This document shows, piece by piece, positions 11,807 to 31,202 of a stretch of DNA of 64,000 nt. Under the pieces are notes generated by a model. That model was not told the DNA's origin. It worked only from the letters and a program-made list of their open reading frames with translations, and did not search any database. Source of the DNA: a virus (taxonomy: Duplodnaviria > Caudoviricetes); IMG/VR virus record IMGVR_UViG_3300021426_000067, one strand, 5' to 3'. Position numbers and translations under genes: made by a program. How positions within the stretch are numbered: position 1 is the first letter of the stretch; each line of letters opens with the position of its first letter.

Positions 11807-12030
11807 TTTTCTGTTTCCTTTCTTTTGTTTGTTTTCCTTACCTTGTAAATATAGTATAATATATTTTTTTTAAAATGTCAATAAAAAATGTTGCACAAAT
11901 TGCGGGAAATTTATTAATTAAAGTTTGTGCGGTTTTCCTATTGACAAAAATGCGGCAGGTATGATATAATGAAAACTCGGACAGGTGACCCAGGAAAGCG
12001 GTCCGAAATTTTCTTCCAGACCGCCTAACA

Positions 12031-12351
12031 TCAGGGGAGCAGACCCCAGCTTCTAAGATATTCTGCAACTGCATTTTCGCATTTGTCTGCTACTTTAGTT
12101 CCATAATAACCATCAACTTCACGAATATCCCATCTATCTCCATCAATCAGAAAATAATCGGTTTTCGCACCATAATAAGGATAATAAAGAGTATCACCAA
12201 AATTATCTTCAAGGATTTCGTCAGTTTCCTTTTCATTCGGCCAGTTATCATCAGCTGTATATCTTGCGATAATTTTTTTCCATGTAGTGATTACTGCCTC
12301 AGTATCAATTTCAATATCATGTTCAATAACTTCTCTGTAATGGATTTTCAT
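12031..12351 (-). CDS. acidic hypothetical protein (paralog family A)
   Basis: HYREVIEHDIEID, FLIDGD. Confidence 0.6.
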   Translation of the reverse strand: MKIHYREVIEHDIEIDTEAVITTWKKIIARYTADDNWPNEKETDEILEDNFGDTLYYPYYGAKTDYFLIDGDRWDIREVDGYYGTKVADKCENAVAEYLRSWGLLP

Positions 12352-12552
12352 TGTTTACCCCCTTATAAAGCATAAGTTTCAATCTTACCAGCATCACAAT
12401 ATTTATCAACTACCACAGGGTCACTGATATCTAATTCATCATATCCCTCATCTGAAAGCATCCTTTTGGCTTCCTCTAAATTGTGGGCATAGCAACCCCA
12501 TGTCCATGTTCCCGAAAATTCAAAATAGCACTCTTTCATTTTTCACACCTCT

Positions 12553-12810
12553 TTAATACCTAAACTCACCGATAACTGCCACACCGCAAAAGTCCTCTTC
12601 ATCAGGGTCATCAGGATTATTATAGAACAGCATTTCCCATTCTACTTCATCCCATGTCATCGCCCTAAAGTTATCAAGGTCGATGAACAACTTATTTCCC
12701 CGACCATCCTCAGTTAAGATGAACGGTCTCAGAGAGTGATTGAAATGGAACATTACAGGCGGAAAGTAGTTGGTCTTAACAGTGATAATCTTTTCATTCA
12801 ATTCATTCAT
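12553..12810 (-). CDS. hypothetical protein
   Basis: GAGGTG RBS before MNELNEK. Confidence 0.55.
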   Translation of the reverse strand: MNELNEKIITVKTNYFPPVMFHFNHSLRPFILTEDGRGNKLFIDLDNFRAMTWDEVEWEMLFYNNPDDPDEEDFCGVAVIGEFRY

Positions 12811-13279
12811 GTTGCACCTCTTTCTTAGTGGTTGCTTTCCTCTTGACAATTATTATTATAGCAGACAGGTATGATTTTGTCAATAGTTAATATTCAAAAT
12901 TTTCTAACCATTCTCTAAATTTTTTAAGAGGATATAAATTTTTCCAAAAAACCCTTTTTACTCTATGAGGTGAACATTGTAAGGAAGTTGCAATTGAATA
13001 AAATATATCATAATCTTCCCAATACCTAAAATATTCACGCTGAGAAATGAATAAATAAATATAGGCTTCAATTTGTTTTTCTAACACTATTTTCTTTTGT
13101 TTTGTCATTCTTTTTTCCTCCTGACAATTATTATTATAGCAAATTATAGGAAAAATACAAGAGGGAATATTACACAAAATAGCGGCGGAAAATTTGTTGA
13201 TCTTGCACATTGACAAAATGGCGGTGCGTAGTGGAAGATTACGCACCGCTACCTTAAAAAAGATAGTGGTGCTTTTTGG

Positions 13280-13480
13280 TTACTCGAAAGGACGCCAATT
13301 AGTAGGCTCAGGCGGAGGCGTCAATTCCCAATTACAAGGAGCATCAAAAATATTAGGATTATTAACAAGACATTTATCTGCATAATCAGAGTAAAAAGGG
13401 CAACCAGAACAATCTTTTTGATTTTCGCAGATACGACGAATTAAATCCAATGCTGAATAAATATCTTTTTCAGTAAACAT
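13280..13480 (-). CDS. Cys-rich small protein
   Basis: CENQKDCSGCPF..C..PCNW; similar to 13491-13688. Confidence 0.55.
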   Translation of the reverse strand: MFTEKDIYSALDLIRRICENQKDCSGCPFYSDYADKCLVNNPNIFDAPCNWELTPPPEPTNWRPFE

Positions 13481-13490
13481 TTTTTCTCCT

Positions 13491-13688
13491 TTACCATTTA
13501 AATGCTTTCCAAGGCTCAAAATTAAATTCCCAATCTCTGGGGATTTTTTTAATAGCACATGTTACATATCCCTGTGCATCTTTCTTTCCTCGAAGAGGAC
13601 ATTCACTGCAACAACGATGCTCTTCACAAGTTTCCTGTAAAGTTACAAGAGCCTGCATGATTTTTTCTCTATCCATTTTTACCACCAC
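13491..13688 (-). CDS. Cys-rich small protein
   Basis: CEEHRCCSECPL..C..PRDW. Confidence 0.55.
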   Translation of the reverse strand: MVVKMDREKIMQALVTLQETCEEHRCCSECPLRGKKDAQGYVTCAIKKIPRDWEFNFEPWKAFKW

Positions 13689-13924
13689 CCTTCAAAAATT
13701 TCAATACCAAATTGCGCTAATTCATAGTTGTGAAAAGGTAATATCATCTTACTTGCACATTCCCAAATCCACGCAGGAATTTGATTCTCTCTATCAATAA
13801 AATCACAAGTCTTAAAGTCTGAGAAAAGAAACACGCTGTCAGGATGTTTAGTAGATGCGCCCCAACACTCTAATACAGTTTCATGGTCACTAATTCTGGA
13901 ATAAAGTTTATACATTTTTATCAC
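13679..13924 (-). CDS. hypothetical protein
   Basis: 81 aa in operon-like cluster. Confidence 0.5.
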   Translation of the reverse strand: MIKMYKLYSRISDHETVLECWGASTKHPDSVFLFSDFKTCDFIDRENQIPAWIWECASKMILPFHNYELAQFGIEIFEGWW

Positions 13925-14109
13925 CCCTCTTTTACAGGTTCCATACTAATCTTCCAAAGTTTTTCGTTACCAAACATTGAAGGTTTCATAAGAATCTCTA
14001 CTGTTTTCACTGCTTCTGAAAGGTCAAAAGGGTCAGAGACTAAGATTTCTCTTTCAGTATAACTGTCCTTTAAATCAAGTCGCTCTCTTAAACATACTTT
14101 CCATTTCAT
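13921..14109 (-). CDS. hypothetical protein
   Basis: GAGAGGAG RBS, promoter near 14143-14171. Confidence 0.55.
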   Translation of the reverse strand: MKWKVCLRERLDLKDSYTEREILVSDPFDLSEAVKTVEILMKPSMFGNEKLWKISMEPVKEG

Positions 14110-14347
14110 TTTTATTTATTCTCCTCTCTTGTTGTTAAATAAATTATAATATAAATTTTGGGAAAAATCAATAGGGGAATATTGCACAAGAAATTCATTT
14201 AAAAATTGTGCAATCTGTATATTGACAAAATGACGGGCTGGCGACCTTAGAAGGCGGCCCGTCCAGGCGGTTTTAGTAAAAATAATGAAAAAATGAGCCA
14301 ATTTTTGTTATTTTTTAACAAAAATTGGCTCAAAACAGGAGAAAATG

Positions 14348-14752
14348 TCAGTTTTCTTTAGTTTTTTTAGTTCTCTGTTTGATTAAATCGAGTTTGTAGT
14401 GATTTTCACCGACATTAAACTCAATAATCTTGGATTTATTAGTGATTTCAGCAGGATAGCCAGCATTTGTCAGACAATTTGCCAACATTTCAATCAATTT
14501 TTCCTTTTCTACATCAGGTTTGCGCTCACGAACCACCTTTTTTCTGGGGGCATCTGCTTTAGCTTCACGATTGATTTTATTGACTTTTGCCTTTTTTGTG
14601 AGTTCCTCTACCTCTTCATTGGTCTGAAAGTCATTATCTTCAAGCCACATCTGGACAGCTTCCTCACGGGTAATGTCAAGCAGTTTCATGTTGTTTTCGA
14701 TTTCCGCATCAGGGATACGGACAACTTTACCATTTTCAAGTGTGTAATTCAT
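14348..14752 (-). CDS. hypothetical phage protein
   Basis: 134 aa, GAGAGGAG RBS, own promoter. Confidence 0.65.
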   Translation of the reverse strand: MNYTLENGKVVRIPDAEIENNMKLLDITREEAVQMWLEDNDFQTNEEVEELTKKAKVNKINREAKADAPRKKVVRERKPDVEKEKLIEMLANCLTNAGYPAEITNKSKIIEFNVGENHYKLDLIKQRTKKTKEN

Positions 14753-14858
14753 TTTGATTTCTCCTCTCTCATTTGATAAGTCTATTATATACTATCCGTA
14801 TCCCCTTGTCAAGTCTTTTTATCGGGTCGGGGATAATTTTTTATCCCCGACCCTTACC

Positions 14859-15215
14859 TCAAGCGATAGCGAAATAAGGGGTCTGCTTAACCTTAGTTCT
14901 AACAACCTTTTTTGCGCTAACAAGGTCAGTCAGCAGGCGAGCAATCCGCTGGTTGCTCAGGTCTGCAAGAGCAGGAATACCATTCTGAATCTCCTTGATG
15001 TTCATAGGCTTATCCGCATCGGTCAGGAAAATCAGGATGTCATCCTTGAAACCAATGTTCTCAAGCTGTGTTGCAGTAGGCTTACGAGGAGTAGCACTCT
15101 TCTTGTCAAGCAGGTCAACCTGATGGTCAACGAACGCAACAAGGTCAGGATTGTCAATAACGATAGCACGAATCTCAGCAAAATACTCTCTTTTAGTCTT
15201 ATTCATAGTAAACAC
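14859..15215 (-). CDS. winged-helix-like DNA-binding protein (paralog B1)
   Basis: LSNQRIARLLTDLV..KKVVRT..KQTPYF; close paralog of 18203-18574. Confidence 0.6.
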   Translation of the reverse strand: MFTMNKTKREYFAEIRAIVIDNPDLVAFVDHQVDLLDKKSATPRKPTATQLENIGFKDDILIFLTDADKPMNIKEIQNGIPALADLSNQRIARLLTDLVSAKKVVRTKVKQTPYFAIA

Positions 15216-15551
15216 CTCTTTCTTTCTTAAAAATTAACTTTTTTTATCTTACATATTTATTATATCACATTTTTTTAAAACTGTCAACAGTTTTTTTTCT
15301 TTCGGTAAGATTTTTTGTTTCCACAGCTGATTGTTTCTTTCCCTTACCTTGTATACTTATTATAATAAAAATTTTTAAAAAAAGCAATATCGGAATATTG
15401 TACAAATTATGGGATCCGCAGGTTTTAAATTTTGTTGAAATTTCCTATTGACAAAAAGTGCAGGATATGGTATAATGAAAATTTCCCGCCGAGCCGATGG
15501 TCGGCGGGCCAGGGAATTACCCTAACCCGCCAAATTTGTCAAGGGGATTTT

Positions 15552-15974
15552 TTAAAAAACATAAATTCTGTTATCTTCGTATTCAGCGTAGAAATACATG
15601 TTGTTATCTTCTTCCCATGTAATCGTTCCGCAGGAACTCAAAGTATCGTCAAAGCATTTCCCGGCTTTTGCTCTTTCTAAAATGCCAGCAGGAACAGCGT
15701 CTCTTCTGGTTAAATTAGGAAATCTTAAAATAATATTGTTTTTCTGATCGAGGTCAACATACCCAAGAACCATGCCGGATTCTACAGCTTCATCATATTC
15801 TTTTACGCACTCAAAAGAATTATCTCTTTTAAGCTCCCACACTTCGAACTGATAATCAATGTCATGGGTTCGGTAATAGGCTAACCAATCGTTAGTCATA
15901 GTAATGGGGGTGCGGTCAGCATCGCATTCCCACTGGTCATCTAATACATCGCATTTCATAATTAAATATCTCAT
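15552..15974 (-). CDS. hypothetical acidic protein
   Basis: 140 aa, GAGGT RBS. Confidence 0.6.
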   Translation of the reverse strand: MRYLIMKCDVLDDQWECDADRTPITMTNDWLAYYRTHDIDYQFEVWELKRDNSFECVKEYDEAVESGMVLGYVDLDQKNNIILRFPNLTRRDAVPAGILERAKAGKCFDDTLSSCGTITWEEDNNMYFYAEYEDNRIYVF

Positions 15975-16007
15975 TTTATTTACCTCTTTTCAATGGGCGG
16001 TGGTTCT

Positions 16008-16718
16008 TTACAGAGCCACCTTGTTCTGATAAGCGTGAAAAGCAGGCTGAGGGATTTTCCACGGCATGTGAACAATTGTTCTGGTCATTTTCTGGTGAGT
16101 GGCGATACACTTGACGAAAATATGAACCTCAATGATTGCATCTTCAAGAGCCGTATGGGATTCAATAAAATCCATGTTCTTAACAAGATGACGATATGCA
16201 ACCTCGGCGGATGTTCGGCAGTTGCCACATTCAGACCGCCAATCGTTCTCAACCGCATCCTTGAAGAAAGAACGTCTGTTCAGAACTGTCTGACAAGCCA
16301 TATGCCATGTATCCCATACAACCGCATCTTCAGGAAAGAATGTCTGTTCTTTATCAAACTGGGTCAGATGCTTTAATGTGCTATTCAGTGCGTTTACATC
16401 AAATTTTGCATTGTAGGCGATAATTGCCTTGACTTTATACTGTCTCATAAGGTCGAGCATTTCGTTGCGGATTTTCCAAAAACTGGAAACAACGAACATA
16501 TTGTCTTTAATGCCCTGCCGATAAAGCGGAATCTTATCAGCGTAATAAGCTGTTTTCATCTTCTTCCACTCGCCATAGAAGATTTCACGGACAACGTAGG
16601 AACGCTTCTCAAAAATGTTACCTGCATTATCATGGATGCAGTAGCCGATGTCATATACAAGCGGATTACCAAAGCCACCGCAAGTTTCAGTATCAAGGGT
16701 TAAGTAAGTGAATTTCAT
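16008..16718 (-). CDS. DEDDh (DnaQ-like) 3'-5' exonuclease
   Basis: LDTET, AYNAKFD, HTALED motifs. Confidence 0.85.
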   Translation of the reverse strand: MKFTYLTLDTETCGGFGNPLVYDIGYCIHDNAGNIFEKRSYVVREIFYGEWKKMKTAYYADKIPLYRQGIKDNMFVVSSFWKIRNEMLDLMRQYKVKAIIAYNAKFDVNALNSTLKHLTQFDKEQTFFPEDAVVWDTWHMACQTVLNRRSFFKDAVENDWRSECGNCRTSAEVAYRHLVKNMDFIESHTALEDAIIEVHIFVKCIATHQKMTRTIVHMPWKIPQPAFHAYQNKVAL

Positions 16719-17031
16719 GTTGCTTTTGTTCTCCTCTCTTTATCTTATGTACTTATTATATACTATGTTCAGCACTTTGTCAAGCACTTTTTTAAGATTT
16801 TTTTGGTGTGTCAGGTGGGCTTGCCCTCCTGACAATTATTATTATAAGGGATAGGGAATAAGAAGTCAACAGGTAGATCTGCACAAATTATGGGAAATTA
16901 GGGGTTTGATTTTTGTTCAAATTGTCTATTGACAAAAAGCCGAGCGGTGTGGTATAATGATTTTCCGGCACATGAGGAGCGTGTGCCGGGCGATGAGTTT
17001 GCACCCACCGCCCATTTTGTCAAGAATTATT

Positions 17032-17244
17032 TTACATATTTTCAGGTTTTGTTACATTGGGGTCATCCCAAATAGTGCCGTCTACGATCTGTGTGTAGGT
17101 TCTCACTTCTTTAGCTCCCACTCGATAAATCATAGCATAAACAGTAGGGGCATAAATATGAGTATGTTCAATCAATTTAATGATTAACATATTTTTAATA
17201 TCATTTTTGAAGTCGTGAATAGCATCGAAAATAGTATAATCCAT
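17032..17244 (-). CDS. hypothetical protein
   Basis: 70 aa, GGGG RBS. Confidence 0.45.
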   Translation of the reverse strand: MDYTIFDAIHDFKNDIKNMLIIKLIEHTHIYAPTVYAMIYRVGAKEVRTYTQIVDGTIWDDPNVTKPENM

Positions 17245-17396
17245 TTTTATTCCCCCTTTACAAACATAACAATATTATAGGCTAAAAACCCGAACACGCC
17301 TACAAGGACAATAGGTGGTAATACTGCAGTAGAAAATGTTACAAAACTCATTTTAGTTTCTCCTCTCTTGTTTTCTTTTAATATAATAATTATACC

Positions 17397-17801: not shown

Positions 17802-18048
17802 TTTTTTATTCTCCTTTCTTGACAATATTATAATATCATATCTCTAAAAGAAAAACAATGTACAAATTGCACAAAATTGCGGGAAGATCATTATTAAAAA
17901 TTATTTTCAAAAATCTCTTGACAAAAAGTGCGGGGTGTAGTATAATGGAATTGGCGTCCTGGTGCTGCAAGTAAGCGGGACGCCAAATAAAAAAAAAGGG
18001 GGGCGGTTTTAAACCGCCCCAGAGAAAGGGAACAAAAAAGGAGGAAAA

Positions 18049-18122
18049 CGACCATGATGGGACTTGAACCCACAATCTTTTGGGAGACAACCAACTGCTT
18101 TCGCCAATTAAGCTACACGGCC
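18049..18122 (-). tRNA. tRNA-Asp(GTC), degenerate
   Basis: GGCCGTG acceptor, TAGCTTAATTGGCGAAAGC D arm, TTGG-TTGTCTC-CCAA anticodon arm, GTGGG-TTCAAGT-CCCAT T arm, G73; no encoded CCA. Confidence 0.7.
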
Positions 18123-18202
18123 AGATAAAGGTGGCGGTTTTAAGGGTTGACCGCCAACCCATTTCAATATTCAGTTTTTAAGTAGTGAGGTACTCAGACC
18201 TC

Positions 18203-18574
18203 TCAGGCTTCAACGTCCTCTTCTGCGCCCAGAGCGTAGTGAGGGGTCTTGCCAACGTAAGTCCTTGCGACCTTTTTAGCTTTCCGCAGGTCAGCAAGCA
18301 GGCGAGCAATACGCTGATTGGTCAGACCCTCGAGGGCAGGAACCAGAGCGACCAGTTCCTTGATGTTGACAGGCTTGTCAGCGTCCGCCAGAGCAACAAG
18401 AATGTCGTTCTTGAAGCCGATGTTCTCAATCTGCGTAGCAGTAGGCTTCCGCTCTGCGGTCTTTTTCTTGTCAAGCAGGTCGACCTCATGGTCGACAAAG
18501 GCGACAAGGTCAGCGTTGTCGATAACCAGTTCACGGATTTCTGCGAAGTATTCTCTCTTAGTCTTGTTTGCCAT
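18203..18574 (-). CDS. winged-helix-like DNA-binding protein (paralog B2)
   Basis: KTKREYFAEIR..KPTATQIENIGFK..LTNQRIARLL. Confidence 0.6.
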   Translation of the reverse strand: MANKTKREYFAEIRELVIDNADLVAFVDHEVDLLDKKKTAERKPTATQIENIGFKNDILVALADADKPVNIKELVALVPALEGLTNQRIARLLADLRKAKKVARTYVGKTPHYALGAEEDVEA

Positions 18575-19012
18575 AATGTAACACCTCTTTCTTTCTTTTG
18601 ATTTGCTTTGTTTTCTTTACCTTACATATTTATTGTATCATATTTTTTTTAGGTTGTCAAGACTTTTTTTAACTTTTTTTTGAAGTTGTTTTTCTTGACT
18701 TCCTTTACCTTATGTATTTATTATATCATAAGGTTTTTTATTTGTCAAGGTTTTTTTTAGAATTTTTAAAAACTTTTTTTTGAAGTTTTTTCTTTCTTCC
18801 CTTACCTTGTATATTTATTATACTAAATTTTTTTAAAAGATGCAAGTCAAAATATCAGGTGAAAATTGGGAAAAATTTATGCAAGATCACGAGAAGAAAA
18901 TGCTTGACAAAAAAGGTGCGGATGTGGTATAATGGAATTTTCGCGCCTGCCCGATGGTTGGCGCGCCAGTACAAAAGGTGGTGAGATTATTATCTCACCA
19001 CCCCCTATATTA

Positions 19013-19528: not shown

Positions 19529-19764
19529 CTTTACACCTCTTTCTTTGTGCTTTGTTTCCCTTTTGATAATACAAGTATATCAAATGAATACTTATTTGTC
19601 AAATGAAATATTACATAAAATACAGGAAAAATAGTTGATATTTTTTGTTACATTTTCCCATTGACAAAAAGTGCGGCGCGTGGTATAATAGTGATGGCGC
19701 GCTGGTGACGCAAGAAAGCGGCGCGCCATTAAGACGCGCCTTAGAGAAAGGGGATAAAAGGGGA

Positions 19765-20283: not shown

Positions 20284-20964
20284 GATTTTTACCTCTCTTT
20301 TGATTTGTTATTTCCTTTCTGTAATTATATATTAACATACCTTGTAAAGAATGTCAAATGAAATATTACACAAAATATGGGATCTTTAAAAGAAAAAGTT
20401 TATTCAAATTGTCTATTGATAAAAAGTGCGGGACATGATATAATGGTGAGAGCGGACTGGTGCGCCTGGCGGCGGTCCGAAAAAAGCTAACACCTTTTGA
20501 GTGTTAGCTTCCATTTTTATTCTATTTCATATTCCTCTATGTGATTCTGAGGACCATTCGGGTCTGCCCCACAATAATAATATTCATGTTCATTGAGGGT
20601 ATCTGTGACATAGGCGGCTTTTTCTCTTGAATCGTATACCCCCTTAATACGATCTTCTTTGCATACAATATATACTTTCATTTTTTTTAATTCTCCTCCA
20701 TTTCCATACGATGTAACTCTCTTTCAAAGAGAACCTGCATTATCAACCACATTTCAAGGCACATTATTCTACCCCCTTGTGATACTCAAGGATGCTCAGC
20801 AGAACATCCTCGGCGACACCTTCTTCAATCATTCTGGCGAACCTGATAACAGTGACATGCTCAAAACCGAACATGTAAATCATTTCAGTTAACATTTCTT
20901 CTTTTGTCATGATTTTTCTCCTCTCTTGATTATGTACTTATTATATCAGGTTCGCGCAGGTTTG

Positions 20965-21153: not shown

Positions 21154-21886
21154 TTTTATTACCTCTCTTTTATTGTATCTTTATTATATCAGGTTCGCGT
21201 GGGTTTGTCAACCCTTAAATTCGAAAACTTTTTCAATGGGTTCTAACCATAATTCATCTTCAGTACGGGTTACTTCATTAATAAACCATGTAAGAAAAAT
21301 ATACTCTTTATTGGAGAGTTTCACTGTAACAGTTTCATCGTATATTGTGTTATGTAATGTATAATATTTCTTTTCTTCCATTTTGATTACCTCTTTTTTC
21401 TTTATTATATCATCAATATTTAATTATGTCAAGAGGACAAAGATTTTTATTTGTTGGGGGAGTGGAAGATAGAGCGTGCGCACGAAACTTTATTTTCCTA
21501 CTCTCAAGGACTGTATCTTTACATATCCCCTTGACAATTATTAGTATATCACATTATAGGAAAAAAACAATGTACAAATTGCACAAAAATTTACTGAAAA
21601 AATTGTGCAGATCGTATAATAAACAGATTGACGGCTCGACGCCACAGGAATCGAGCCGTCAGCTTAAACCAACGGCTCTTTTCTGAGAAAGGGAACAAAA
21701 ACCTAAAAAAGGGTAATGTCATAAACCTGCTTGCCCGCAAATGCAGACGCTACACATAAGGAGTTAATTACAACGCTCGTCTCTACGATTACAACAGTAT
21801 GGTCAACACAAGACAGAATATACTTTTTCATAATTTTTTCTCCTTTTCTTTTGATAATATAATTATAATATAATATTTATAAAATG

Positions 21887-22693: not shown

Positions 22694-23339
22694 CTCTCTC
22701 TGTTTGCCTTTCTGTAATTATATATTAGCACACTTTACATAGGCTGTCAAATAAAAAATGTAACAAAAATGGGAAAAAATATCGCCGCTTTTTTGTTACA
22801 TTTTCCTATTGACAAAAGTGCGGGTGATGTGGTATAATGATCAGCGCGTCGGCCCGATGGTTGACGCGGCGATAAAAAGGGCGGTGCGAACCTGACTATG
22901 AATGTGGTTCCTGACCGCCCTATAAATTTAGTATTTGATTTCCCGTGCGGGCAGGAGCCAGTGGCCAGTTGGCTCCCTTTTTGTGCCCTCGTACCAGTTT
23001 CTGTCATCGCGCCGTACGTAGCGCTCTACTTTTTCGCTTGGTCAGCATTATCTTTCTCCTCTCTTGGCTTGATTGTCTCGCTACAGGAGACCGCCCATTT
23101 AGATTTAAAATTTAGAATTTAGAAATTAATTATAGTGGTTTCTTTTGGCGATGCTCTAATCATTTTTCTCACCTCTCTTTGATGATTTAATTATATCAGG
23201 TTCAGAAGCTATTGTCAAGAGGTTTTTTAACTTTTTCTTTCAAGCGTCCTACCTGAGCGGTAACCCTAAGCAAGACGCTTGCCCAGTAAGTTGTTTTCCT
23301 CTTTTGTTATATTTATTATATCTTATTTTTATTTAGTTG

Positions 23340-23621: not shown

Positions 23622-23967
23622 AATATTTTTCCTTTCTTTTAATCGGAAATTTTTTTATTTTTCCTGCGGACTTCTTTTTTTGCCCACTTTTTCATATCCT
23701 TTTTAGATTTCATATCCTGCCAGTATCCGTGAGTAACGGTGGTCTTTTTGTAATCTGCTCTTTTCATTTGTGGTAGCTCCTTTCTGTAATTATATGATAC
23801 TACATCGGGCGGAGAATGTCAAATGGAATATTGCACAAATTATGGGATCTGGTTCACAGAAATGTTTATGCAAATTGCCTATTGACAAATGGGCAGCACC
23901 TGTGGTATAATGGAAACGCGCCAGACCCGACAGCTGGCGCGGCGATGAAAAAAAGGTAAGATTTCTC

Positions 23968-24513
23968 TTACCTTTCTCCCTTAAAACCCCATTTGTAGCA
24001 GAGAGGAGCATCTTTTTTCAAATCAATATCAGGGTACTTCTTTAAAATCTCCCTTGTATCAAATCCTCTTGAAGTGATGACTGCAAATCCATGAGGCGTT
24101 CTGTGGATTGCGTACTTAATTTCCGCAGGGATTTCTTTAATAAAAGCTAAAGTAGTATTTAAATCAGTATCACAATCAAAGAGCCATTTTTTCTCCAGCT
24201 TATTTTCTACTTTTGAAGCGAGAGAAACGACTTTGTTTTCAATCTGTTCCAGCTTCCAATTAGTAGGAGTGATAGCTTCATCAATGAGGAACTTTGCCAA
24301 TTCTTTTTTGACTTTAGTTTCATCTACTCTATTGATAGAAACATAAAATCTGGAAAACTCGCCATCCATGCCCTTTTCAATAAAATCTTTGAACTTTTCA
24401 TCAAGCTCTTTATTGAGGAAGCCCTCTGTTAAGAAACTTTTAGAACGAGGTTTAAATCCCTCAATATTTGCATTGTCTTTATTACGGCTGATAAAATTAA
24501 TTACGTAAGTCAT
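23968..24513 (-). CDS. hypothetical protein, possible AEP/primase-like catalytic motifs
   Basis: WLFDCD (hhhDxD) and RTPHGFAV. Confidence 0.45.
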   Translation of the reverse strand: MTYVINFISRNKDNANIEGFKPRSKSFLTEGFLNKELDEKFKDFIEKGMDGEFSRFYVSINRVDETKVKKELAKFLIDEAITPTNWKLEQIENKVVSLASKVENKLEKKWLFDCDTDLNTTLAFIKEIPAEIKYAIHRTPHGFAVITSRGFDTREILKKYPDIDLKKDAPLCYKWGFKGER

Positions 24514-24699
24514 TTTTTATTTCCTCCTGACAATTATTATTATATATTAAATTAATAAAAAAGTCAAATAAAATATTGCATAAAAAACAGGATCTATAAA
24601 GTCTCATCTTTGTTAGATTTTTCTATTGACAAAAAGTGCATTATATAGGGGAATAGACTTGGCGCGCTGTCACCGTTCGAAGACAGCGCGCCAATAAAA

Positions 24700-24937: not shown

Positions 24938-24984
24938 ATTTAATTATATCAGGCTTCCGCCGGATTGTCAAGAGTTTTTTGAAA

Positions 24985-25234: not shown

Positions 25235-25877
25235 AGTATATATTACCATACCCCGCCTGCAGGGTCAAGGGGTATTTAATAAAAAAATTGCACAAAATCG
25301 GGAATCGAAAAGTATTAGTTTTTGTTCAATTTTCCTATTGACAAAAGAGGCTGGGGTGTGTTATACTGAAAAACCCGCCGAATCGACAGTCGGCGGGCCA
25401 GCAAGAGCAACCAAAAAAGAGAGGGTTACCCCTCTCTTTTATCAAATCAGATGACCACGGTTTGTGTACAGGTTGTAGATGTAGGTGTAACCATCAGCCA
25501 TGTCAACGTAGACCTCGCCAGCATAAAGGCTGATTTCCTCGATAGGCCGTCTATCCTTTTTGGGGATGGCATTTAAAATCTGCTGAAGTTTTGTGAAATC
25601 TACATAACCTAATGTTTCCATTTTTTATCTCCTCTCTTGAATCTATATTAATTGTACTACAGGGGGTTGAGGTTGTCAACCCCTTATTTTAAAGAACTAC
25701 ATATTTTTCAGTCTGATAAAAGGTATCAATGGTAGGCGTTTCTAACTCATCAAAATGGTTATAGTAGCCACCGCTGTCACGATGCTGGATTACGACTTCT
25801 AAATCTAATGCGTTATTCTGTTTTGCCCACTCATATAAGTCTTTAATTGTCATTTTTAATCTCCTCTTTTACGGTTT

Positions 25878-26045
25878 TTAGAAATTAAGTGTAACCACAC
25901 CGCCGATTTCACGAGCAACCTCATCAGCCCTCTCTTTGGTTTCATATGCGCCCCAGAACCAGAGTTCTCCATCGCAGAGTCTGGAAACGATGAACATATA
26001 TCTCTTTGCGTAGTCAGGCAGGTTTCTTACATTGATTTTGGTCAT
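25878..26045 (-). CDS. small protein (paralog family C)
   Basis: RLCDGELWFWGAYETKERADEVAREIGG; 55 aa, not in ORF track. Confidence 0.6.
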   Translation of the reverse strand: MTKINVRNLPDYAKRYMFIVSRLCDGELWFWGAYETKERADEVAREIGGVVTLNF

Positions 26046-26266
26046 TTTTTTGTACCCCTTTCGTGGTAGTTATTGGTTATGTCCCTTACAAGTATTATAA
26101 TACTATACCTGCGTAGAAATGTCAAGGGGGTTTTGCAAATTTTCTGGAAAAATTTTACTGATCAGCGTGCGCCTAAATCCAGCTGATTTTTTCGCTGATC
26201 ATGGGTGAAAACATTTGGCGGTGCGCTCCCCGTCGCCCGCGCACCGCCAAATAAAAAAAGTGGGAC

Positions 26267-26362
26267 TTAATCGTCCCACTCATCAGAGGTCATCGCCTCT
26301 TCAAGGGCCTCGGCCTCGAATGCCTCGGTCATGTAATACTCTTCCGCCACCCACATTCCCAT
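26267..26362 (-). CDS. 31 aa highly acidic micropeptide
   Basis: GAGAGGAG RBS and own promoter; MGMWVAEEYYMTEAFEAEALEEAMTSDEWDD. Confidence 0.55.
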   Translation of the reverse strand: MGMWVAEEYYMTEAFEAEALEEAMTSDEWDD

Positions 26363-26430
26363 GTCGCTCTCCTCTCTTGTTGAGTGCTTTCCTTTAACTG
26401 TCTTTATTATACTACAGTGAATTGGGGTTG

Positions 26431-26592
26431 TCAACCCATTTCTTTTATTTTTTTCAAACAATCTCTATCATCAAAAGTATTGTTAAACATCATGTACTCT
26501 ACTGCTTCTAAGCACTGAAAAAGATTGCTGTTAGGATACTTTTTTTTCATTTCAGCAAACCATTCTTTGAGTTCATTTTCTGTATAGGTCAT
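26431..26592 (-). CDS. small protein paralogous to 23340-23621
   Basis: MTYTENELKEWFAEMKKKYPNS. Confidence 0.6.
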   Translation of the reverse strand: MTYTENELKEWFAEMKKKYPNSNLFQCLEAVEYMMFNNTFDDRDCLKKIKEMG

Positions 26593-26606
26593 TTTTTACT
26601 CTCCTT

Positions 26607-26723
26607 TTAATAAAATCCATCATTTTCTTCTGTATCTTCATCTTCTGGATCATCTTCATCTTCAATGAGATTGTTCAAAATGTAGTATGCTTTTTTAATA
26701 TAATCTTCTCCATAGAAATTCAT
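26607..26723 (-). CDS. 38 aa highly acidic micropeptide
   Basis: AGAGG RBS; ..IEDEDDPEDEDTEENDGFY. Confidence 0.5.
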   Translation of the reverse strand: MNFYGEDYIKKAYYILNNLIEDEDDPEDEDTEENDGFY

Positions 26724-26822
26724 TGTTTTTTCCTCTCTTGTTATATGTTTTCCTTTAACTGTATTTAGTATATCAAATTAAAATCGGATTGTCAAGGGTT
26801 TTTTTGGAAAATGTCAGGAAAA

Positions 26823-27245
26823 TTAATTCCTGACTTTTTCCAAAAGTGCTTTTTTATTTGCAAGCTGTTTTTCAAGTTCTGCAATTTCTCTTTCAAGTCT
26901 TGTAATCTGTGCCTTGCGTGCTTTGGCTTTCCGATATTCTTCTACGGTCATGCCTGCGTCCTGCGCTTTCCGCATTTCAGTAGCAAGTCTCTTTTCTTTT
27001 CTGGCTTCAGCTTTTTCCTGCCGCGCCTGATAGGCGGCTTCCCTTGCGGCGTCCTCGGCGGCGATTTCTTCAACAGTCTTAATGTAACCCTCATTGACGG
27101 TGTAACCTACGGCGGCGGCTTTTGCGGCTGCTTCTTCAGCAGTTTCTGCCTGAACCTCAACGACTTCAACGTCGTAGTTATAGGCACCGCCCATATATGC
27201 GATATAATCAGCGTGTTTCATTCTCTCAACTCTATAAGTGTTCAT
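26823..27245 (-). CDS. Ala/Glu-rich coiled-coil protein
   Basis: 140 aa, own promoter. Confidence 0.65.
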   Translation of the reverse strand: MNTYRVERMKHADYIAYMGGAYNYDVEVVEVQAETAEEAAAKAAAVGYTVNEGYIKTVEEIAAEDAAREAAYQARQEKAEARKEKRLATEMRKAQDAGMTVEEYRKAKARKAQITRLEREIAELEKQLANKKALLEKVRN

Positions 27246-27362
27246 TTTATATTCCCCTTTCTATTTCCTTTCTGTAATTATATGATACTACATTTTTTTT
27301 AATTTGTCAAATACTTTTTTTGATAAGGAGCAGGCAGGTTCTGCCCGCCCCCGCCATATGGA

Positions 27363-27575
27363 TTAGATTATAGGAGTGGCAAGACCGCCAATCTCACATG
27401 CGACCTCAAAAGCCCTGTCCATGGTTTCATATGCACCATAGAACCATGCCTCATCGTCACAAATACGGAATGTGATGAACGCTTCATGAAGAGCATATGC
27501 AGGGACGTTCTGGATGCGCCATCCATTAGTCTCAATAGTGAAAACCTTGTTGTTCCAATCTTTGATAATAGTCAT
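27363..27575 (-). CDS. small protein (paralog family C)
   Basis: close copy of 28570-28782. Confidence 0.65.
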   Translation of the reverse strand: MTIIKDWNNKVFTIETNGWRIQNVPAYALHEAFITFRICDDEAWFYGAYETMDRAFEVACEIGGLATPII

Positions 27576-27953
27576 TGTTTTAATCCCCTTTCAAATTGTT
27601 GTTGTGTTCCCTTGACACTACCTATTATAAGGGCTACTATAATATAGTGCAATAGTCAAAGTATACAAATTTTCATGGCTTTATTGTACAAAACCACCAA
27701 AAAAATGAGGTTTTTGTAAACGATTTCACGAAAAACACGAAAAATTTTACGAAAACTTTACGAAACTATCGATCATTAGCTTACTGGCAAAATATACAAA
27801 AACCGTAGGCGGTTTTTGGTAGATCTGCTGAAAAGCAATTTCGTCACTTTTAACAATTACCGGATTGTATTTTTATATATTTTTTTATAAAATTAGTCTT
27901 GACAAACTGCGGTTATATGTGGTATAATTTTGCGGCCAGCAGCCGGTCGTTTA

Positions 27954-28224
27954 CTTTAGTCATTTAATGCTTTAGTGTACTAAAGCTAACAAACAAAACT
28001 CTAAGTTTTGACTATTAACTTCAATGCTTTAGTGCGTTAAAGTTAATAGTCAAAACTTAGAGTTTATGTTATTAACTTTAACACTTTAGCGCATTAAAGC
28101 TAACTTCAATACTTTAGTGCGCTAAAGTTAGCAACTAAAACTTGAAGTTTTGGCTATTAACTCTGACACTTTAGCGCGTTAAAGCAGATCAGGATCTGGA
28201 CTTTCGGGCTTTAACGCGCTAAAG
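27954..28224. repeat. array of CTTTA-N6-TAAAG palindromes with nested 26 bp perfect inverted repeat
   Basis: copies at 27970, 28027, 28084, 28112, 28169, 28209; IR AAACTCTAAGTTTTGACTATTAACTT spanning 27996-28065. Confidence 0.85.
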
Positions 28225-28333
28225 CATATGCGGTCAAGGATCTGGCTTTTTTTTGGCATAACGGAGCGGAAGCCTGAGGCGGCTCGCTCCCGAGCGCCCG
28301 CGAGCCGCCAATTTTTAGAGGTAAGGAAGAGGG

Positions 28334-28429
28334 TCACCCCTCTTCCTCTTCCAGGACCTCGGCAACCTCTGCCCAGATGGCATCCCAGCCGTATTCGTTA
28401 TATGCTACCTCAAGTGCTGTCATTTCCAT
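28334..28429 (-). CDS. 31 aa acidic micropeptide
   Basis: AAGGAG RBS, own promoter; MEMTALEVAYNEYGWDAIWAEVAEVLEEEEG. Confidence 0.55.
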   Translation of the reverse strand: MEMTALEVAYNEYGWDAIWAEVAEVLEEEEG

Positions 28430-28569
28430 GTTCGTTTCTCCTTTCTGTAGTGCTTTCCTTTAACTGTCTTTATTATAACAGGTGGTTACTGGATTGTCAA
28501 GTCTTTTTTTTTATTTTTTTTAGATTTTTTTGAGGGGCAGGCAGGTTCTACCTGCCCCTTGCCTATAGG

Positions 28570-28782
28570 TCACACTACCGGAGTAGCAAGACCACCGATT
28601 TCCTCGGCGACCTCGAGCGCCCTGTCCATGGTGTCATATGCACCGTAGAACCAGCAGGTATCATCGCAGATGCGGAATGTGATGAACCGTTCGGTCAAGG
28701 CATATGCCGGAACGTTCTGGATGCGCCAGCCGTTAGTGTCGATTGTGAAAACCTTGTCTTTCCAATTTCTTACGATTGTCAT
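28570..28782 (-). CDS. small protein (paralog family C)
   Basis: FRICDDTCWFYGAYDTMDRALEVAEEIGG. Confidence 0.65.
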   Translation of the reverse strand: MTIVRNWKDKVFTIDTNGWRIQNVPAYALTERFITFRICDDTCWFYGAYDTMDRALEVAEEIGGLATPVV

Positions 28783-29009
28783 TTTTTTATTCCCCTTTCT
28801 GTTGTTTGTTGTTTTCCCTTTCTGTAATTATATAATAACATAGGTTGCTCACACTGTCAATACTTTTTTAATAAAAAAATGTATAAATTAGGAAAAAATA
28901 TTTTGTGCAAAAATCTCAAAAATTAGTCTTGACAAACTGCTGCCATATGTGATATAATTTTTTCGCCCGCCAAACGGGCGTTCGCGTTAACTAAAAAAGG
29001 ATTTGAGGT

Positions 29010-29174
29010 TTAAACCTCAAATCCTACGATAGTACCATCTTCTGCTACGGTCACCAGAGCCTCACCAGAGCCGTAACCAGTGCCGGATACGTAGATAGTG
29101 CCGTCCTCAAATTCAGTAATGTCTACCAGACCGATGTGAGCCATTTCTCGAAGTACTGCAATAGTAAATAACAT
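29010..29174 (-). CDS. small acidic protein
   Basis: AGGGG RBS before MLFTIAV. Confidence 0.55.
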   Translation of the reverse strand: MLFTIAVLREMAHIGLVDITEFEDGTIYVSGTGYGSGEALVTVAEDGTIVGFEV

Positions 29175-29535
29175 TTTGTGTTCCCCTTTCTGTGGTTGTT
29201 TTCCTTTAACTGTCTTTATTATAGCAGGTTTGCTGTAGTCTGTCAACAACTTTTTTGAAAAATTTTTAAATTTTTCTGTCTCAGCGGGAACCGGACCTAC
29301 TCAGCCTCAGCTCCCGCCGGAGCTTTTATTTTGTTGTTGTTCCTTTCTGTAATTATATAATAGCACACTGGATTAACTTTGTCAAATGATTTTTAATAAA
29401 AAAATATACAAATCAGGAAAAGATTTTTTGTGCAAAAATCTTGAAAATTAATCTTGACAAACCGCATCACTATATGGTAAAATTTTTTCGCCCTGCAGGC
29501 GGTCGGCTTCAGTAGCCGCCGCCTGTTTTTGCTTT

Positions 29536-29844
29536 TCAGCAGTATGCCAGATTTTTTCTTGCCCAACCGAAAATGCTAATCTGTTTGCAAGCCCTGCCGA
29601 TTGCAAGTGCTTCTTTTTTAGTGTTAACTCTTTTGCTTTTATCTACATAGTAGATACCATTAGCAAGCCAGACACCGCAGTTACCACCAAATGCCTTGAC
29701 AGCATTAATTGCATCCCTTGCTGTTGTCGCCTCAATACCTTCAGTGGCAACCTGCCAGCCTGTCTTATAAGTGACGATCTGACCATTTTTAAGAGTGATA
29801 CCATCATTATCCTGCAGTTTGTTAATTGTACGAATGTTAATCAT
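29536..29844 (-). CDS. hypothetical protein
   Basis: start MINIRTIN; own promoter. Confidence 0.6.
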   Translation of the reverse strand: MINIRTINKLQDNDGITLKNGQIVTYKTGWQVATEGIEATTARDAINAVKAFGGNCGVWLANGIYYVDKSKRVNTKKEALAIGRACKQISIFGWARKNLAYC

Positions 29845-30112
29845 TTTATAAACCCTTTCTTTTTTGTTTTTATTGTTTTCCCTTTCTGTAATTATAATAT
29901 AACACATTAGTTCAACCTTGTCAATGGATTTTTGATAAAAAAATGCACAAAATAGGAAAAAATATTTTGTGCAGATTTTCCGCAAATTAGTCTTGACAAA
30001 CTGCATCATTGTATGGTATAATTGTTTCGACTTGCAGTCGATCGACTGCGTTTATTAACATAGTTAAAGGCAAGTCTTTCGACTTGCCTTTGTTTGTGTG
30101 TGTTACATCTTT

Positions 30113-30337
30113 TCAGAAGATTCTAATTCTGTCTGCCTTTGCAAGTTTCACCGGATGAAAGAACCCTGCTTTTAAGTAGACTTCATAACGTGTGTCTGCG
30201 CCGTCTACACGAATCATTCTGTAAATTGCTTTATGGTTTTCAGTTGCAAGTGCTTTGGCATCCTGCCACGCTTTGCCCCAACACTCTGTATCTGTAAACT
30301 CTGTACCTGCTACGATGTAATTGTAAGTCTTTGTCAT
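30113..30337 (-). CDS. hypothetical protein
   Basis: GAGG RBS before MTKTYNY; terminator-like hairpin at 30066-30091. Confidence 0.6.
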   Translation of the reverse strand: MTKTYNYIVAGTEFTDTECWGKAWQDAKALATENHKAIYRMIRVDGADTRYEVYLKAGFFHPVKLAKADRIRIF

Positions 30338-31202
30338 TTCTTTGTCCTCTCTCTCTTGTGTGGTTTTGTGTACTTGTTCCTTACAAGTATTATAATACAC
30401 TATCTCCCTTTAATTGTCAATACATTTTTTGAAAGTTTTTTATTTTTTTTTACATGTTCAACTTGTTTCAACATGTTATGTGTATACTTTATTACTTTAA
30501 TACTTTATTTCTTTATTGCTTTAGTGTGATGAAGTGAACAAAACTTGTTTTGTTCACACTTTAGTCCTTTAGCGTGCTGAAGTGCTTTGCTCTCTGTTAC
30601 TCATCTGGCGTATTGTGCAAACTGCCCAATTCAGGAAGCCGGATTTTGTGCAATATTTTTTGTAAATTAGTCTTGACAAACTGCATTATAATATGATAAA
30701 ATTTTCCGGCCTTCGAACGGCCGTTCGCTGTAATTATTAAGGGTAGGCTTTTCAGCCTACCCTTTTTATCCTTTTATTTTGTGTGGCTTGTTATCAAAAG
30801 GCAATCACTGCAATAATGCTGGGAATAATACCAACTACTGTCCATGCCATGAGGATGTAATGTCTTATTCTGTCGCTCTTGTCTTCAATGTCAGTGCCGA
30901 TAATCCAATTAATCATGTTCTTCATTTTTTGTATTCCTTTCTTTGTTCTTGTGTGTGGTTATGTATCTCTTCCTTACAAGTATTATGATACTACATCTTC
31001 ATTTAATTGTCAATAAATTTTTTTAAAATTTACAAAAAATTTTTTTGTTAACTTTGTACCGGCTAACTCTGTTTTTAGGGCGGTCTGGTCTGATCGTTCT
31101 ACGTGACGTATACCCGCACAACCGCCAGTATCAAAAACATACCCTGGGGGTAGGATTTGGGCTTTAATACTTTAACACGTTGAAGTGTGAAATGCCCGCC
31201 AC

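What the first reader, a model, noticed from the sequence alone, without database searches (positions are those of the whole stretch)
11880..30730. About 20 repeated divergent-promoter cassettes that would each make a tiny antisense-oriented hairpin RNA
Seen: nearly all genes here are minus strand, yet between gene groups a conserved unit recurs: minus-strand promoter, ~60 bp spacer, plus-strand TTGACAAA-N-TG-N-TATAAT, then at once a GC-rich 6-13 bp hairpin, often an A tract, and the terminator of the next minus-strand unit. There is no RBS or ORF. Two subtypes: CTATTGACAAAA (11.9-25.3 kb) and AATTAGTCTTGACAAACTGC (27.9-30.7 kb). In some copies (13210, 14222, 21628, 24626) the -10 is lost but the hairpin is kept. 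Inference: a dispersed small-RNA array (protein sponge, anti-defence decoy or antitoxin mimic), an RNAP sink for host takeover, or DNA hairpin signals used in genome entry or recombination. I know no described system with this layout.
Basis: partly seen in the sequence, partly recalled or inferred. Interest (0 to 1): 0.85.

Follow-up and report, generated by a model that had tools for sequence, protein, structure and literature searches.

The report
Backward-firing promoter cassettes in gut phage
An uncultured gut or rumen phage separates its early genes with about 19 copies of a conserved junction unit, in which a perfect host-type promoter points backwards into a GC hairpin and the previous operon's terminator; this is a new variant of known phage promoter-terminator cassettes, and the backward RNA has not yet been observed.

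Summary
Window 11.9-30.7 kb has 18-19 cassettes on the + strand, among small minus-strand genes.

Each cassette contains, in order:
- the next operon's minus-strand promoter;
- an inverted repeat whose arms sit about 40-55 bp upstream of both promoters;
- a consensus sigmaA promoter (TTGACA, 17/18 bp, TG-N-TATAAT);
- a GC hairpin that starts 7-10 nt after the -10;
- usually the U-tract and terminator of the preceding minus-strand operon.

I found 83 distinct copies in related 130-146 kb uncultured phages. Of these, 82 have TTGACA, 79 have TATAAT and 81 have TG. Stems covary, and 55 of 71 copies are clearly antisense to the flanking ORFs. The gap between the two -35 boxes clusters at 58-60 bp, with minor peaks near 48 and 68-70.

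Hairpin loops are not conserved across the family. Rfam has no match. Terminators facing a cassette are no more bidirectional than other terminators. Between close relatives, indel and rearrangement breakpoints fall at cassette edges, as with PeSL cassettes of T4-like phages.

Best reading (0.45): a cis-acting operon-junction insulator whose head-on promoter makes a short 5'-hairpin RNA. A trans-acting decoy RNA is not excluded. No RNA data could be obtained. This scan has reported PeSL-like cassettes in other phages, but not this family.

The parts
11853..12013 (+). Cassette 1 (subtype 1). Minus promoter -35 at 11876-11881 and -10 at 11853-11858; box TTGCACAAAT at 11890; plus promoter 11941-11970; hairpin 11978-12005, followed by AAATTTTCTT.
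13125..13251 (+). Cassette 2 (variant B). Box, then TTGACAAAA at 13210, then hairpin 13219-13251 directly. No -10. On the minus strand it reads as a hairpin followed by AUUUUGUCAA.
14135..14332 (+). Cassette 3 (variant B). Inverted repeat ATTGCACAA..TTGTGCAAT; TTGACAAAA at 14222; hairpin 14232-14263; minus-strand terminator 14294-14332.
15355..15552 (+). Cassette 4. Plus promoter 15448-15476; hairpin 15485-15508 (loop CCGATGG). This hairpin is the only terminator-like structure after minus-strand gene 15552-15974.
16841..17023 (+). Cassette 5. Minus promoter 16869-16841; plus promoter 16929-16958; hairpin 16965-16989.
17815..18020 (+). Cassette 6. Plus promoter 17918-17946; hairpin 17951-17986; A9 tract; terminator 18000-18020 of the minus-strand tRNA-Asp unit.
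18800..19002 (+). Cassette 7. Plus promoter 18904-18933; hairpin 18942-18965; second hairpin 18977-19002.
19574..19731 (+). Cassette 8. Minus promoter 19602-19574; plus promoter 19661-19689; hairpin 19692-19731.
20329..20520 (+). Cassette 9. Minus promoter 20357-20329; plus promoter 20416-20444 (TTGATA); hairpin 20453-20479; bidirectional terminator 20484-20510.
21530..21661 (+). Cassette 10 (degenerate). Inverted repeat TTGCACAAAAA..TTGTGCA; TATAAT at 21615; TTGACG at 21628 lies inside the hairpin stem 21630-21661.
22722..22921 (+). Cassette 11. Minus promoter 22750-22722; plus promoter 22809-22838; hairpin 22845-22868; second hairpin 22878-22921.
23794..23975 (+). Cassette 12. Minus promoter 23822-23794; plus promoter 23882-23911; hairpin 23917-23941; A7 tract; terminator 23952-23975.
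24539..24696 (+). Cassette 13. Minus promoter 24567-24539; TTGACAAAAAGTGC at 24626 with a degenerate -10; hairpin about 24659-24694.
25240..25445 (+). Cassette 14. Plus promoter 25338-25367 (TATACT); hairpin 25374-25397; bidirectional terminator 25412-25441.
27890..27950 (+). Cassette 15 (subtype 2). Plus promoter 27899-27928; hairpin 27932-27950. It fires into the palindrome array 27954-28224.
28832..29025 (+). Cassette 16 (subtype 2). Minus promoter 28860-28832; plus promoter 28929-28958; hairpin 28964-28980; minus-strand terminator 28998-29025.
29357..29535 (+). Cassette 17 (subtype 2). Minus promoter 29385-29357; plus promoter 29454-29483; hairpin about 29495-29526 followed by UUUUUGCUUU, a plus-strand terminator.
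29896..30100 (+). Cassette 18 (subtype 2). Minus promoter 29924-29896; 11-bp inverted repeat 29944-29973; plus promoter 29993-30022; hairpin 30033-30050; plus-strand terminator 30065-30092.
30600..30775 (+). Cassette 19 (subtype 2). Plus promoter 30673-30702; hairpin about 30707-30723; strong plus-strand terminator 30739-30764 with a U-tail.

Best explanation
Each unit is the junction between two early operons of an SPbeta-like, TAG-recoded phage. Read along the gene (minus) strand, it holds: the preceding operon's intrinsic terminator, a second GC hairpin, a host sigmaA consensus promoter facing head-on into those hairpins, a shared inverted-repeat upstream element, and the next operon's promoter.

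I propose that the head-on promoter acts in cis in two ways:
- Polymerase bound or firing there stops read-through from the upstream operon, by collision or as a roadblock just beyond the terminator's U-tract. Each early operon is then expressed only from its own promoter.
- Its product is a short RNA of about 45-95 nt that begins at the base of a stabilising 5' hairpin. This RNA is complementary to the 3'-terminal hairpin of the upstream mRNA, so it could also act as a local antisense RNA.

The two back-to-back promoters are helically phased and share one upstream element, so they probably work as a coupled pair. The conserved cassettes also serve as recombination joints at which gene modules are swapped.

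Shown: the anatomy, conservation, covariation, orientation, phasing and breakpoints. Inferred: that the promoter fires, the RNA ends, the insulation and the antisense effect.
For: Promoter under selection: among 83 distinct copies from the window and relatives, 82 have TTGACA, 79 have TATAAT and 81 have TG. Spacers are only 17 or 18 bp. The spacer and the discriminator GGAAWTTC are conserved.

Hairpin: it starts 7-10 nt after the -10. Mean dG is -17.3 against -4.8 for background 40-mers, and 95% of copies lie below the background 5th percentile. There are 57 distinct stems. In a subset chosen for one register, 98.4% of cells pair, 7 of 8 pairs change on both sides, and the covariation score is 0.79 against 0.16, with 0 of 500 shuffles reaching it.

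Position: the A-tract after the hairpin is the U-tract of the preceding minus-strand terminator. At 11941, 15448 and 16929 the hairpin is the only terminator-like structure after the upstream gene.

Orientation: 55 of 71 copies are clearly antisense to the flanking ORFs and 2 are sense. In a complete 130-kb relative, all copies lie in one 12-kb early region and all are antisense.

Coupling: the gap between the two -35 boxes is 58-60 bp in 52 of 72 copies, with minor peaks at 48 and 68-70. In the window it is 58-59 bp for subtype 1 and 68 bp for subtype 2.

No family-wide RNA sequence motif was found, which suits a local role.

Predicted RNAs fold as two hairpins with z-scores of -4.5 to -8.3 in 7 of the 8 tested; the unit at 15448 scores -1.3.

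Breakpoints between relatives that are 80-96% identical over their aligned blocks fall at cassette edges.
Against: - No transcript data.
- G.U usage shows no strand bias (22 against 23), so the hairpin could act in either RNA or in DNA.
- Terminators facing a cassette are no more bidirectional than others (mean A count 3.70 against 4.15, p = 0.33). There is therefore no sign of selection for a defined plus-strand 3' end in subtype 1.
- A strong terminator alone normally insulates operons, and about 60% of the minus-strand promoters here lack a cassette.
- Subtype 2 has its own plus-strand terminators and a more conserved RNA, which fits a true small-RNA gene better.
- The copies are related by descent, so the counts are not independent.
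Confidence: 0.45

Rival explanations
1. The cassettes are genes for a multi-copy family of early small RNAs acting in trans. Each RNA has a 5'-triphosphate GC hairpin, an A-rich linker and a terminator hairpin. Such RNAs could soak up a host RNA-binding protein, an RNA decay enzyme or a defence sensor that recognises shape rather than sequence.
For: - The promoter is a perfect, conserved, very strong one.
- The hairpin sits at the predicted 5' end, a known stabilising position in Firmicutes (the stabilising effect is my own knowledge).
- Subtype 2 copies in the window and in relatives have their own U-tailed plus-strand terminators and a partly conserved RNA sequence.
- There are 10-19 copies per genome.
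- The same early region carries other promoter-driven non-coding candidates.
Against: - No loop or linker motif is shared across the family. GGA is not enriched (0.23 against 0.28 in shuffles).
- Facing terminators are not specially bidirectional.
- Phasing with the divergent promoter is not needed for an RNA gene.
- Variant B keeps the hairpin without a -10.
- Rfam has no match.
Confidence: 0.2
2. The backward promoters are polymerase traps. Super-consensus promoters aimed at hairpins would hold or recycle host sigmaA polymerase on phage DNA. This would raise local polymerase supply for the paired early promoter or starve the host as the genome replicates.
For: - Every promoter element is optimal, including TG and a GG discriminator.
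- The two promoters are paired, phased and share an upstream element.
- In relatives, some gene-strand promoters fire straight into a hairpin with a U-tract.
Against: - Ordinary minus-strand gene promoters here are equally close to consensus.
- Nothing links copy number to host shut-off.
- Conservation of a paired hairpin is not explained by trapping alone.
Confidence: 0.1
3. The cassettes matter mainly as recombination scaffolds, with PeSL-like modular shuffling. The backward promoter would then be a passenger kept by gene conversion.
For: - In L007/L008, 4 of 9 breakpoints lie within 15 bp of a cassette edge. My rough estimate is about 0.4 expected by chance.
- In L097/L098, cassettes are the shared junction of rearranged blocks.
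- PeSL precedent: PMC2839356, PMC4122927.
Against: - Gene conversion would homogenise the hairpin too, yet there are 57 different stems beside an invariant promoter.
- The promoter is kept intact across phages whose shared genes are only about 65-70% identical.
Confidence: 0.1
4. The inverted repeat is an operator for a phage regulator that flips each junction between the early promoter and the backward promoter. This would be a distributed early shut-off switch, comparable to phi29 p4 at its divergent A2b/A3 promoters.
For: - Arms of up to 12 nt, 14-26 nt apart, lie next to both -35 boxes.
- The motif TGCACAAAW occurs 13 times against 2.3 expected, and 11 of the 13 lie in cassettes.
- Helical phasing of the two promoters.
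- SPbeta has a repeated operator (SPBRE) at about ten promoter regions bound by MrpR.
Against: - The arms may simply be two copies of one upstream promoter element. Both read AAAWTTTGTGCAA towards their own promoter.
- No binding protein has been identified.
- The sequence is unlike SPBRE.
Confidence: 0.1

Closest known systems
PeSL (promoter-early stem-loop) cassettes of T4-like myoviruses (Arbiol et al. 2010, PMC2839356; Comeau et al. 2014, PMC4122927)
   Same: Both are repeated composite units of a strong host-type early promoter plus a GC stem-loop. Both lie between small genes of unknown function in a plastic early region. In both, indel and replacement breakpoints between close relatives fall at the cassettes.
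   Different: Here each unit carries a second, perfect promoter that faces backwards into the stem-loop. The unit also has an inverted-repeat upstream element and fixed helical phasing between the two promoters. The stems differ from copy to copy, unlike the GGGG..CCCC stems of PeSLs. The phage is SPbeta-like, not T4-like. Mini-circles were not tested.
Convergent 3'-overlapping antisense RNAs: lambda OOP RNA, and the type I antitoxin RNAs of B. subtilis prophages (SR4/bsrG and SR6/yonT of SPbeta, RatA/txpA). Comparison from my own knowledge; yonT silencing by RNase III is mentioned in PMC10516654.
   Same: In both, a short RNA from a constitutive promoter converges on a gene and overlaps the 3' end or terminator of its mRNA. 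The known examples occur in temperate phages or prophages, including SPbeta, a distant relative of this phage.
   Different: Here there are 10-19 copies per genome, behind unrelated and mostly non-toxin-like genes. The predicted overlap is little more than the terminator hairpin. No RNA or RNase III evidence exists.
SPBRE, the repeated MrpR operator of Bacillus phage SPbeta (PMC10516654)
   Same: Both are short symmetric motifs repeated at many promoter regions of a large phage with a YorL-type DNA polymerase.
   Different: The sequence differs: ATACAAA..TATGTAT in SPbeta against TTGCACAAAT..ATTTGTGCAA here. So does the position: SPBRE lies over or next to the promoter core, whereas this repeat lies between two divergent promoters. 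No binding protein is known here.
Lambda PR' with its short 6S RNA and tR', and HK022 put RNAs (my own knowledge)
   Same: In both, a strong constitutive promoter makes a short structured transcript just upstream of a terminator.
   Different: No Q-like or put-like features were found. The direction is antisense to the neighbouring genes, and there are many copies.
Convergent-promoter interference, as at coliphage 186 pR/pL (my own knowledge)
   Same: Both have head-on promoters where polymerase at one promoter interferes with traffic from the other.
   Different: In 186 there is one pair forming a lysis-lysogeny switch. Here a terminator lies between the promoters and the design is repeated at many operon junctions.

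Membership tests
PeSL-type composite promoter-terminator cassette | Strong host sigma70/sigmaA-type early promoter in the repeat | tested here: met
   One search finds 12/12 matches. One search finds 82/83 TTGACA, 79/83 TATAAT and 81/83 TG.
PeSL-type composite promoter-terminator cassette | Adjacent stable stem-loop in an intergenic position | tested here: met
   Terminator activity itself cannot be tested with these tools.
PeSL-type composite promoter-terminator cassette | Many copies in a plastic region of small genes of unknown function | tested here: met
   18-19 copies among about 45 small ORFs, most without family hits. About 10 copies lie in one 12-kb region of a complete relative.
PeSL-type composite promoter-terminator cassette | Indel or replacement breakpoints between close relatives at the cassettes | tested here: met
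   L007/L008 and L097/L098. The sample is small, only two pairs.
PeSL-type composite promoter-terminator cassette | Promoter oriented to drive the flanking gene | tested here: not met
   The conserved promoter studied here is antisense to the flanking ORFs in 55 of 71 copies. A separate minus-strand promoter in the same cassette does drive the next gene.
PeSL-type composite promoter-terminator cassette | Excised mini-circles formed between cassettes | not testable with these tools
   Needs PCR or sequencing reads from virions.
Cis-antisense RNA (OOP or type I antitoxin kind) | Promoter convergent with the target gene and close to its 3' end | tested here: met
Cis-antisense RNA (OOP or type I antitoxin kind) | Transcript that overlaps the target mRNA | not testable with these tools
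   No RNA data. The predicted overlap is the shared terminator hairpin.
Cis-antisense RNA (OOP or type I antitoxin kind) | Target is a small hydrophobic toxin (type I toxin-antitoxin systems) | tested here: not met
   Upstream genes are diverse: 54-172 aa ORFs, a SprT-like protein and a tRNA.
SPBRE/MrpR operator | 15-bp motif of the ATACAAA..TATGTAT kind | tested here: not met
   One search shows SPBRE in SPbeta promoters. The box here has a different sequence.
SPBRE/MrpR operator | Bound by an MrpR (YopR)-like repressor | not tested
   I did not search for an MrpR homologue, and only 64 kb of the genome is held.
Any Rfam RNA family | Covariance-model match | tested here: not met
   Only tRNA-Asp reaches threshold. 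No cassette match at E <= 5.

The most novel reading that the evidence does not exclude
The backward promoters are genes for a new class of multi-copy phage early RNAs: 5'-triphosphate, hairpin-capped, 45-95 nt, with 10-19 different sequences per genome. These would act in trans by shape, as decoys for a host RNA-binding, RNA-decay or RNA-sensing defence factor. Alternatively, the promoter-hairpin pairs act as polymerase traps that reprogramme host transcription.
Probability: 0.2. Interest if true: 0.8.

Novelty: new variant of a known kind. Interest (0 to 1): 0.55.

Why it matters
Repeated promoter-terminator cassettes are known to organise and shuffle phage early genes. A cassette with a second, perfectly conserved promoter aimed backwards at the terminator, phased with its partner, has not been described to my knowledge.

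If the head-on promoter insulates operons or tunes their 3' ends, it would be a compact natural design for transcriptional insulation, of interest for synthetic biology. It would also show how large uncultured gut phages time their early genes.

If the RNAs act in trans, it would be a new kind of phage counter-measure.

The family is widespread in rumen and gut metagenomes. It can be tested with ordinary in vitro transcription using sigmaA holoenzyme.

Tried and rejected
- Rfam at gathering and at E <= 5: no family for the cassette.
- blastn of 7.9 kb against cultured phages: only tiny unrelated hits, so no cultured relative carries the unit.
- The first genome contigs pattern found nothing. 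The looser pattern gave 84 loci, about 33 of them with true units, all metagenome bins. The two Ruminococcus sp. YE71 isolate contigs were promoter look-alikes without units.
- MAFFT-based consensus folding of the hairpins failed because the registers differ. I replaced it with a single-register subset and a covariance model. That model is narrow: it finds 6 hits in the window, all on the plus strand.
- G.U strand-bias test: no bias.
- CsrA-type GGA loop, Shine-Dalgarno-like loop or any other common loop motif: not enriched family-wide.
- The 135 nt after a unit-type minus-strand promoter at 10842 does not fold better than shuffles (z = +1.5).
- Homology of the box to SPBRE: rejected.
- Closer relatives for breakpoint mapping: the best protein identity in IMG/VR is only 61-65%.

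Full report
**What the window is.** The window encodes a DnaE-type DNA polymerase, NrdD and a Dda-like helicase. The polymerase is about 40% identical to YorL of Bacillus phage SPbeta and to large Enterococcus phages. Other readers of this scan note TAG-recoded late genes from 34.5 kb on the plus strand; I did not test that. No whole genome is held. Region 10-34 kb is packed with small minus-strand ORFs that have ribosome-binding sites. The few family hits there (SprT-like, NT5C-like, several PHROGs of unknown function) are all on the minus strand.

**The observation.**
- TTGACAAA occurs 32 times against 6.3 expected.
- The consensus scan finds 15 plus-strand promoters with 11-12 of 12 matches in 11.9-30.7 kb, nearly all with a TG extension and a 17 or 18 bp spacer. 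They lie among about 35 minus-strand promoters of equal quality.
- Reading the sequence gives 18 units plus one degenerate unit.
- The layout in plus-strand order is:
  - the -10 and -35 of a minus-strand promoter;
  - a box TTGCACAAATTWTGGGA;
  - an inverted partner ATTTGTGCAA;
  - CCTA-TTGACA-AAAAGTGCGG..GTGGTATAAT-GGAAWTTC;
  - a GC-rich hairpin;
  - CCAG or GCGAY;
  - an A-tract;
  - the terminator hairpin of the preceding minus-strand operon.
- Subtype 2 (27.9-30.7 kb) has AATTAGTC-TTGACAAACTGC and a longer linker.

**Conservation.**
- A pattern scan of IMG/VR found ten loci from 26-146 kb viral contigs. These carry the whole unit many times each.
- An HMM built from ten window units found 45 units at E < 1e-8 in the window and those loci. 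It found more in about 33 rumen or gut metagenome-bin contigs.
- Among 83 distinct copies, 82 have TTGACA, 79 have TATAAT and 81 have TG. All spacers are 17 or 18 bp. The spacer, the GG-AAWTT discriminator and the box are conserved.
- Subtype 2 is conserved in relatives too.
- In a complete 130-kb relative with terminal repeats, all units lie in one 12-kb stretch and all are antisense to the genes.
- Across loci, 55 of 71 units are clearly antisense to the flanking ORFs, 2 are sense and 14 are ambiguous.
- No cultured phage carries the unit at blastn level, and Rfam has no matching family.

**The hairpin.**
- It starts 7-10 nt after the -10 hexamer, which is at or within a few bases of the expected start site. 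It ends about 33 nt after the -10.
- Mean dG is -17.3 kcal/mol against -4.8 for random 40-mers from the same loci. 95% of units fall below the background 5th percentile. There are 57 different stem starts among the 83.
- In a 16-sequence subset sharing one register, 98.4% of cells pair and 7 of 8 pairs change on both sides. The covariation score is 0.79 against 0.16 in shuffles (0 of 500 reach it) and at most 0.25 when the partner columns are slid. That subset was chosen for its register, which favours the structure.
- An apparently orthologous pair differs by a compensatory C:G to T:A change (L007 2108 against L008 8098).
- G.U usage shows no strand preference (22 against 23). The stem could therefore act in the plus RNA, the minus RNA or the DNA.
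- Loops are not conserved across the family. GGA and other motifs are not enriched beyond sub-family effects.

**What lies around the hairpin.**
- The A-tract after the hairpin is the U-tract of the upstream minus-strand terminator.
- In most units a second hairpin, that terminator, follows at about +40 to +75.
- Where there is no second hairpin (11941, 15448, 16929), the first hairpin is the only terminator-like structure after the upstream gene. Read on the minus strand, it is followed by GAAAUUYCAUUAUA.
- Eight window units were folded as plus-strand RNAs of 45-72 nt. Most fold as two hairpins, and 7 of the 8 have z-scores of -4.5 to -8.3; the unit at 15448 scores -1.3.
- At least 10 of the 15 promoter-bearing window units have some U-rich tail after the last hairpin on the plus strand. 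The RNAs extend to about 95 nt when the longer second hairpins are counted.
- However, gene-strand terminators that face a cassette are no more A-rich upstream than other terminators in these phages (3.70 against 4.15, p = 0.33). There is thus no sign of extra selection for a plus-strand 3' end.
- Subtype 2 is different. Several copies have strong U-tailed plus-strand terminators and a partly conserved RNA sequence.

**Coupling of the two promoters.**
- The inverted repeat consists of the same element, AAAWTTTGTGCAA, read towards each promoter. Each copy ends a few to about 20 bp from its -35.
- TGCACAAAW occurs 13 times against 2.3 expected, and 11 of the 13 lie in cassettes.
- The gap between the two -35 hexamers is 58-60 bp in 52 of 72 units where a divergent promoter could be called. 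Minor clusters lie at 48 and 68-70, roughly one helical turn apart.
- In the window the gap is 58-59 bp for subtype 1 and 68 bp for subtype 2.
- This rigid, phased geometry suggests that the pair works as one unit. That could be through a bound regulator or through the polymerases themselves.

**Variant B.**
- At 13210, 14222 and 21628, and at a dozen places in relatives, the hairpin follows the -35-like box directly. On the gene strand this reads AAAATTTC-stem-GAAATTTTTGTCAA, a classical bidirectional terminator.
- In relatives it is often faced by a complete gene-strand promoter whose expected start site falls inside the 5' arm of the stem. Transcripts arriving from upstream would then terminate, while new transcripts would start beyond the block.
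- This supports the view that the constant job of the hairpin is to stop gene-strand traffic just before the next promoter.

**Recombination.**
- In the pair L007/L008 (about 90-96% identical across the aligned blocks), 4 of 9 homology breakpoints lie within 15 bp of a cassette edge. Three of those four lie at the far edge of the hairpin. My rough estimate of the chance expectation is about 0.4.
- In L097/L098, cassettes form the overlapping junction between blocks that sit at different places in the two genomes.
- This is the behaviour described for PeSL cassettes of T4-like phages.
- The sample is small. No relative closer than 61-65% protein identity to the window was found.

**Interpretation.** I read the unit as a PeSL-like operon-junction cassette that has gained a head-on sigmaA promoter.
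- The facts that point to a cis role at the DNA or transcription level are: its fixed position just beyond the upstream terminator, its phasing with the next operon's promoter, the lack of any family-wide RNA motif, and the existence of variant B. The cis role could be insulation by collision or roadblock, or local antisense to the 3' hairpin of the upstream mRNA.
- The facts that keep a real small-RNA function alive are: the start-site-proximal hairpin, the extreme promoter quality, and the self-terminated subtype 2.
- My odds: cis junction/insulator with a short antisense RNA 0.45; trans-acting RNA 0.2; polymerase trap 0.1; recombination scaffold only 0.1; operator switch 0.1.
- None of these can be settled without transcript mapping, which I could not obtain.

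**Relation to earlier notes of this scan.** Many PeSL-like cassettes have been reported in other phages, and one multi-copy early RNA module in RaK2-like phages. A sequence look-up found this family only in this same stretch.

Noticed in passing
window 10790-10842 (-): A unit-type promoter (TTGACAAACACTTGCGGCCTGTGGTATAAT) lies on the gene strand. It is followed by about 120 nt of GC-rich sequence with no ORF, ahead of the promoter of gene 10275-10622. This stretch does not fold better than shuffles (z = +1.5).
   Followed up: partly
window 14859-15206 (-) and 18203-18574 (-): Two paralogous early genes (115 and 123 aa, no clear family). Each sits behind two or three tandem consensus promoters with a shared leader ACAAGGTAAGGGAAAG. 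Relatives carry up to three copies.
   Followed up: partly
window 18048-18123 (-): tRNA-Asp(GTC) sits in the early region with its own terminator (18000-18020). That terminator is faced head-on by cassette 6, and read-through from that cassette would be antisense to the tRNA.
   Followed up: no
window 27954-28224: An array of CTTTAGNNNNNNCTAAAG-type palindromes lies directly downstream of the subtype-2 backward promoter at 27899. It gives spurious plant-miRNA hits in Rfam. It could be a transcription-activated origin or a protein-binding array.
   Followed up: no
L008 about 4560-4700, L009 about 4730-4820, L010 about 14085-14164, L046, L053, L071: In relatives, a complete gene-strand promoter is placed so that its expected start site lies inside the 5' arm of a bidirectional terminator hairpin. 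Upstream transcripts would stop there, while new transcripts would start past the block.
   Followed up: partly
window 34511-34572 (+): The first gene of the plus-strand late block has its own consensus promoter (TTGACAAAGG..TATACT). It lacks the cassette box, so it is not part of this family.
   Followed up: partly
loci (for example L014, L028, L039, L019): Contigs carrying these phage cassettes are binned into metagenome-assembled genomes labelled Saccharibacteria, Methanobrevibacter, Endomicrobiaceae and Bacteroidales. These are probably mis-binned phage contigs, so host labels from bins are unreliable here.
   Followed up: no
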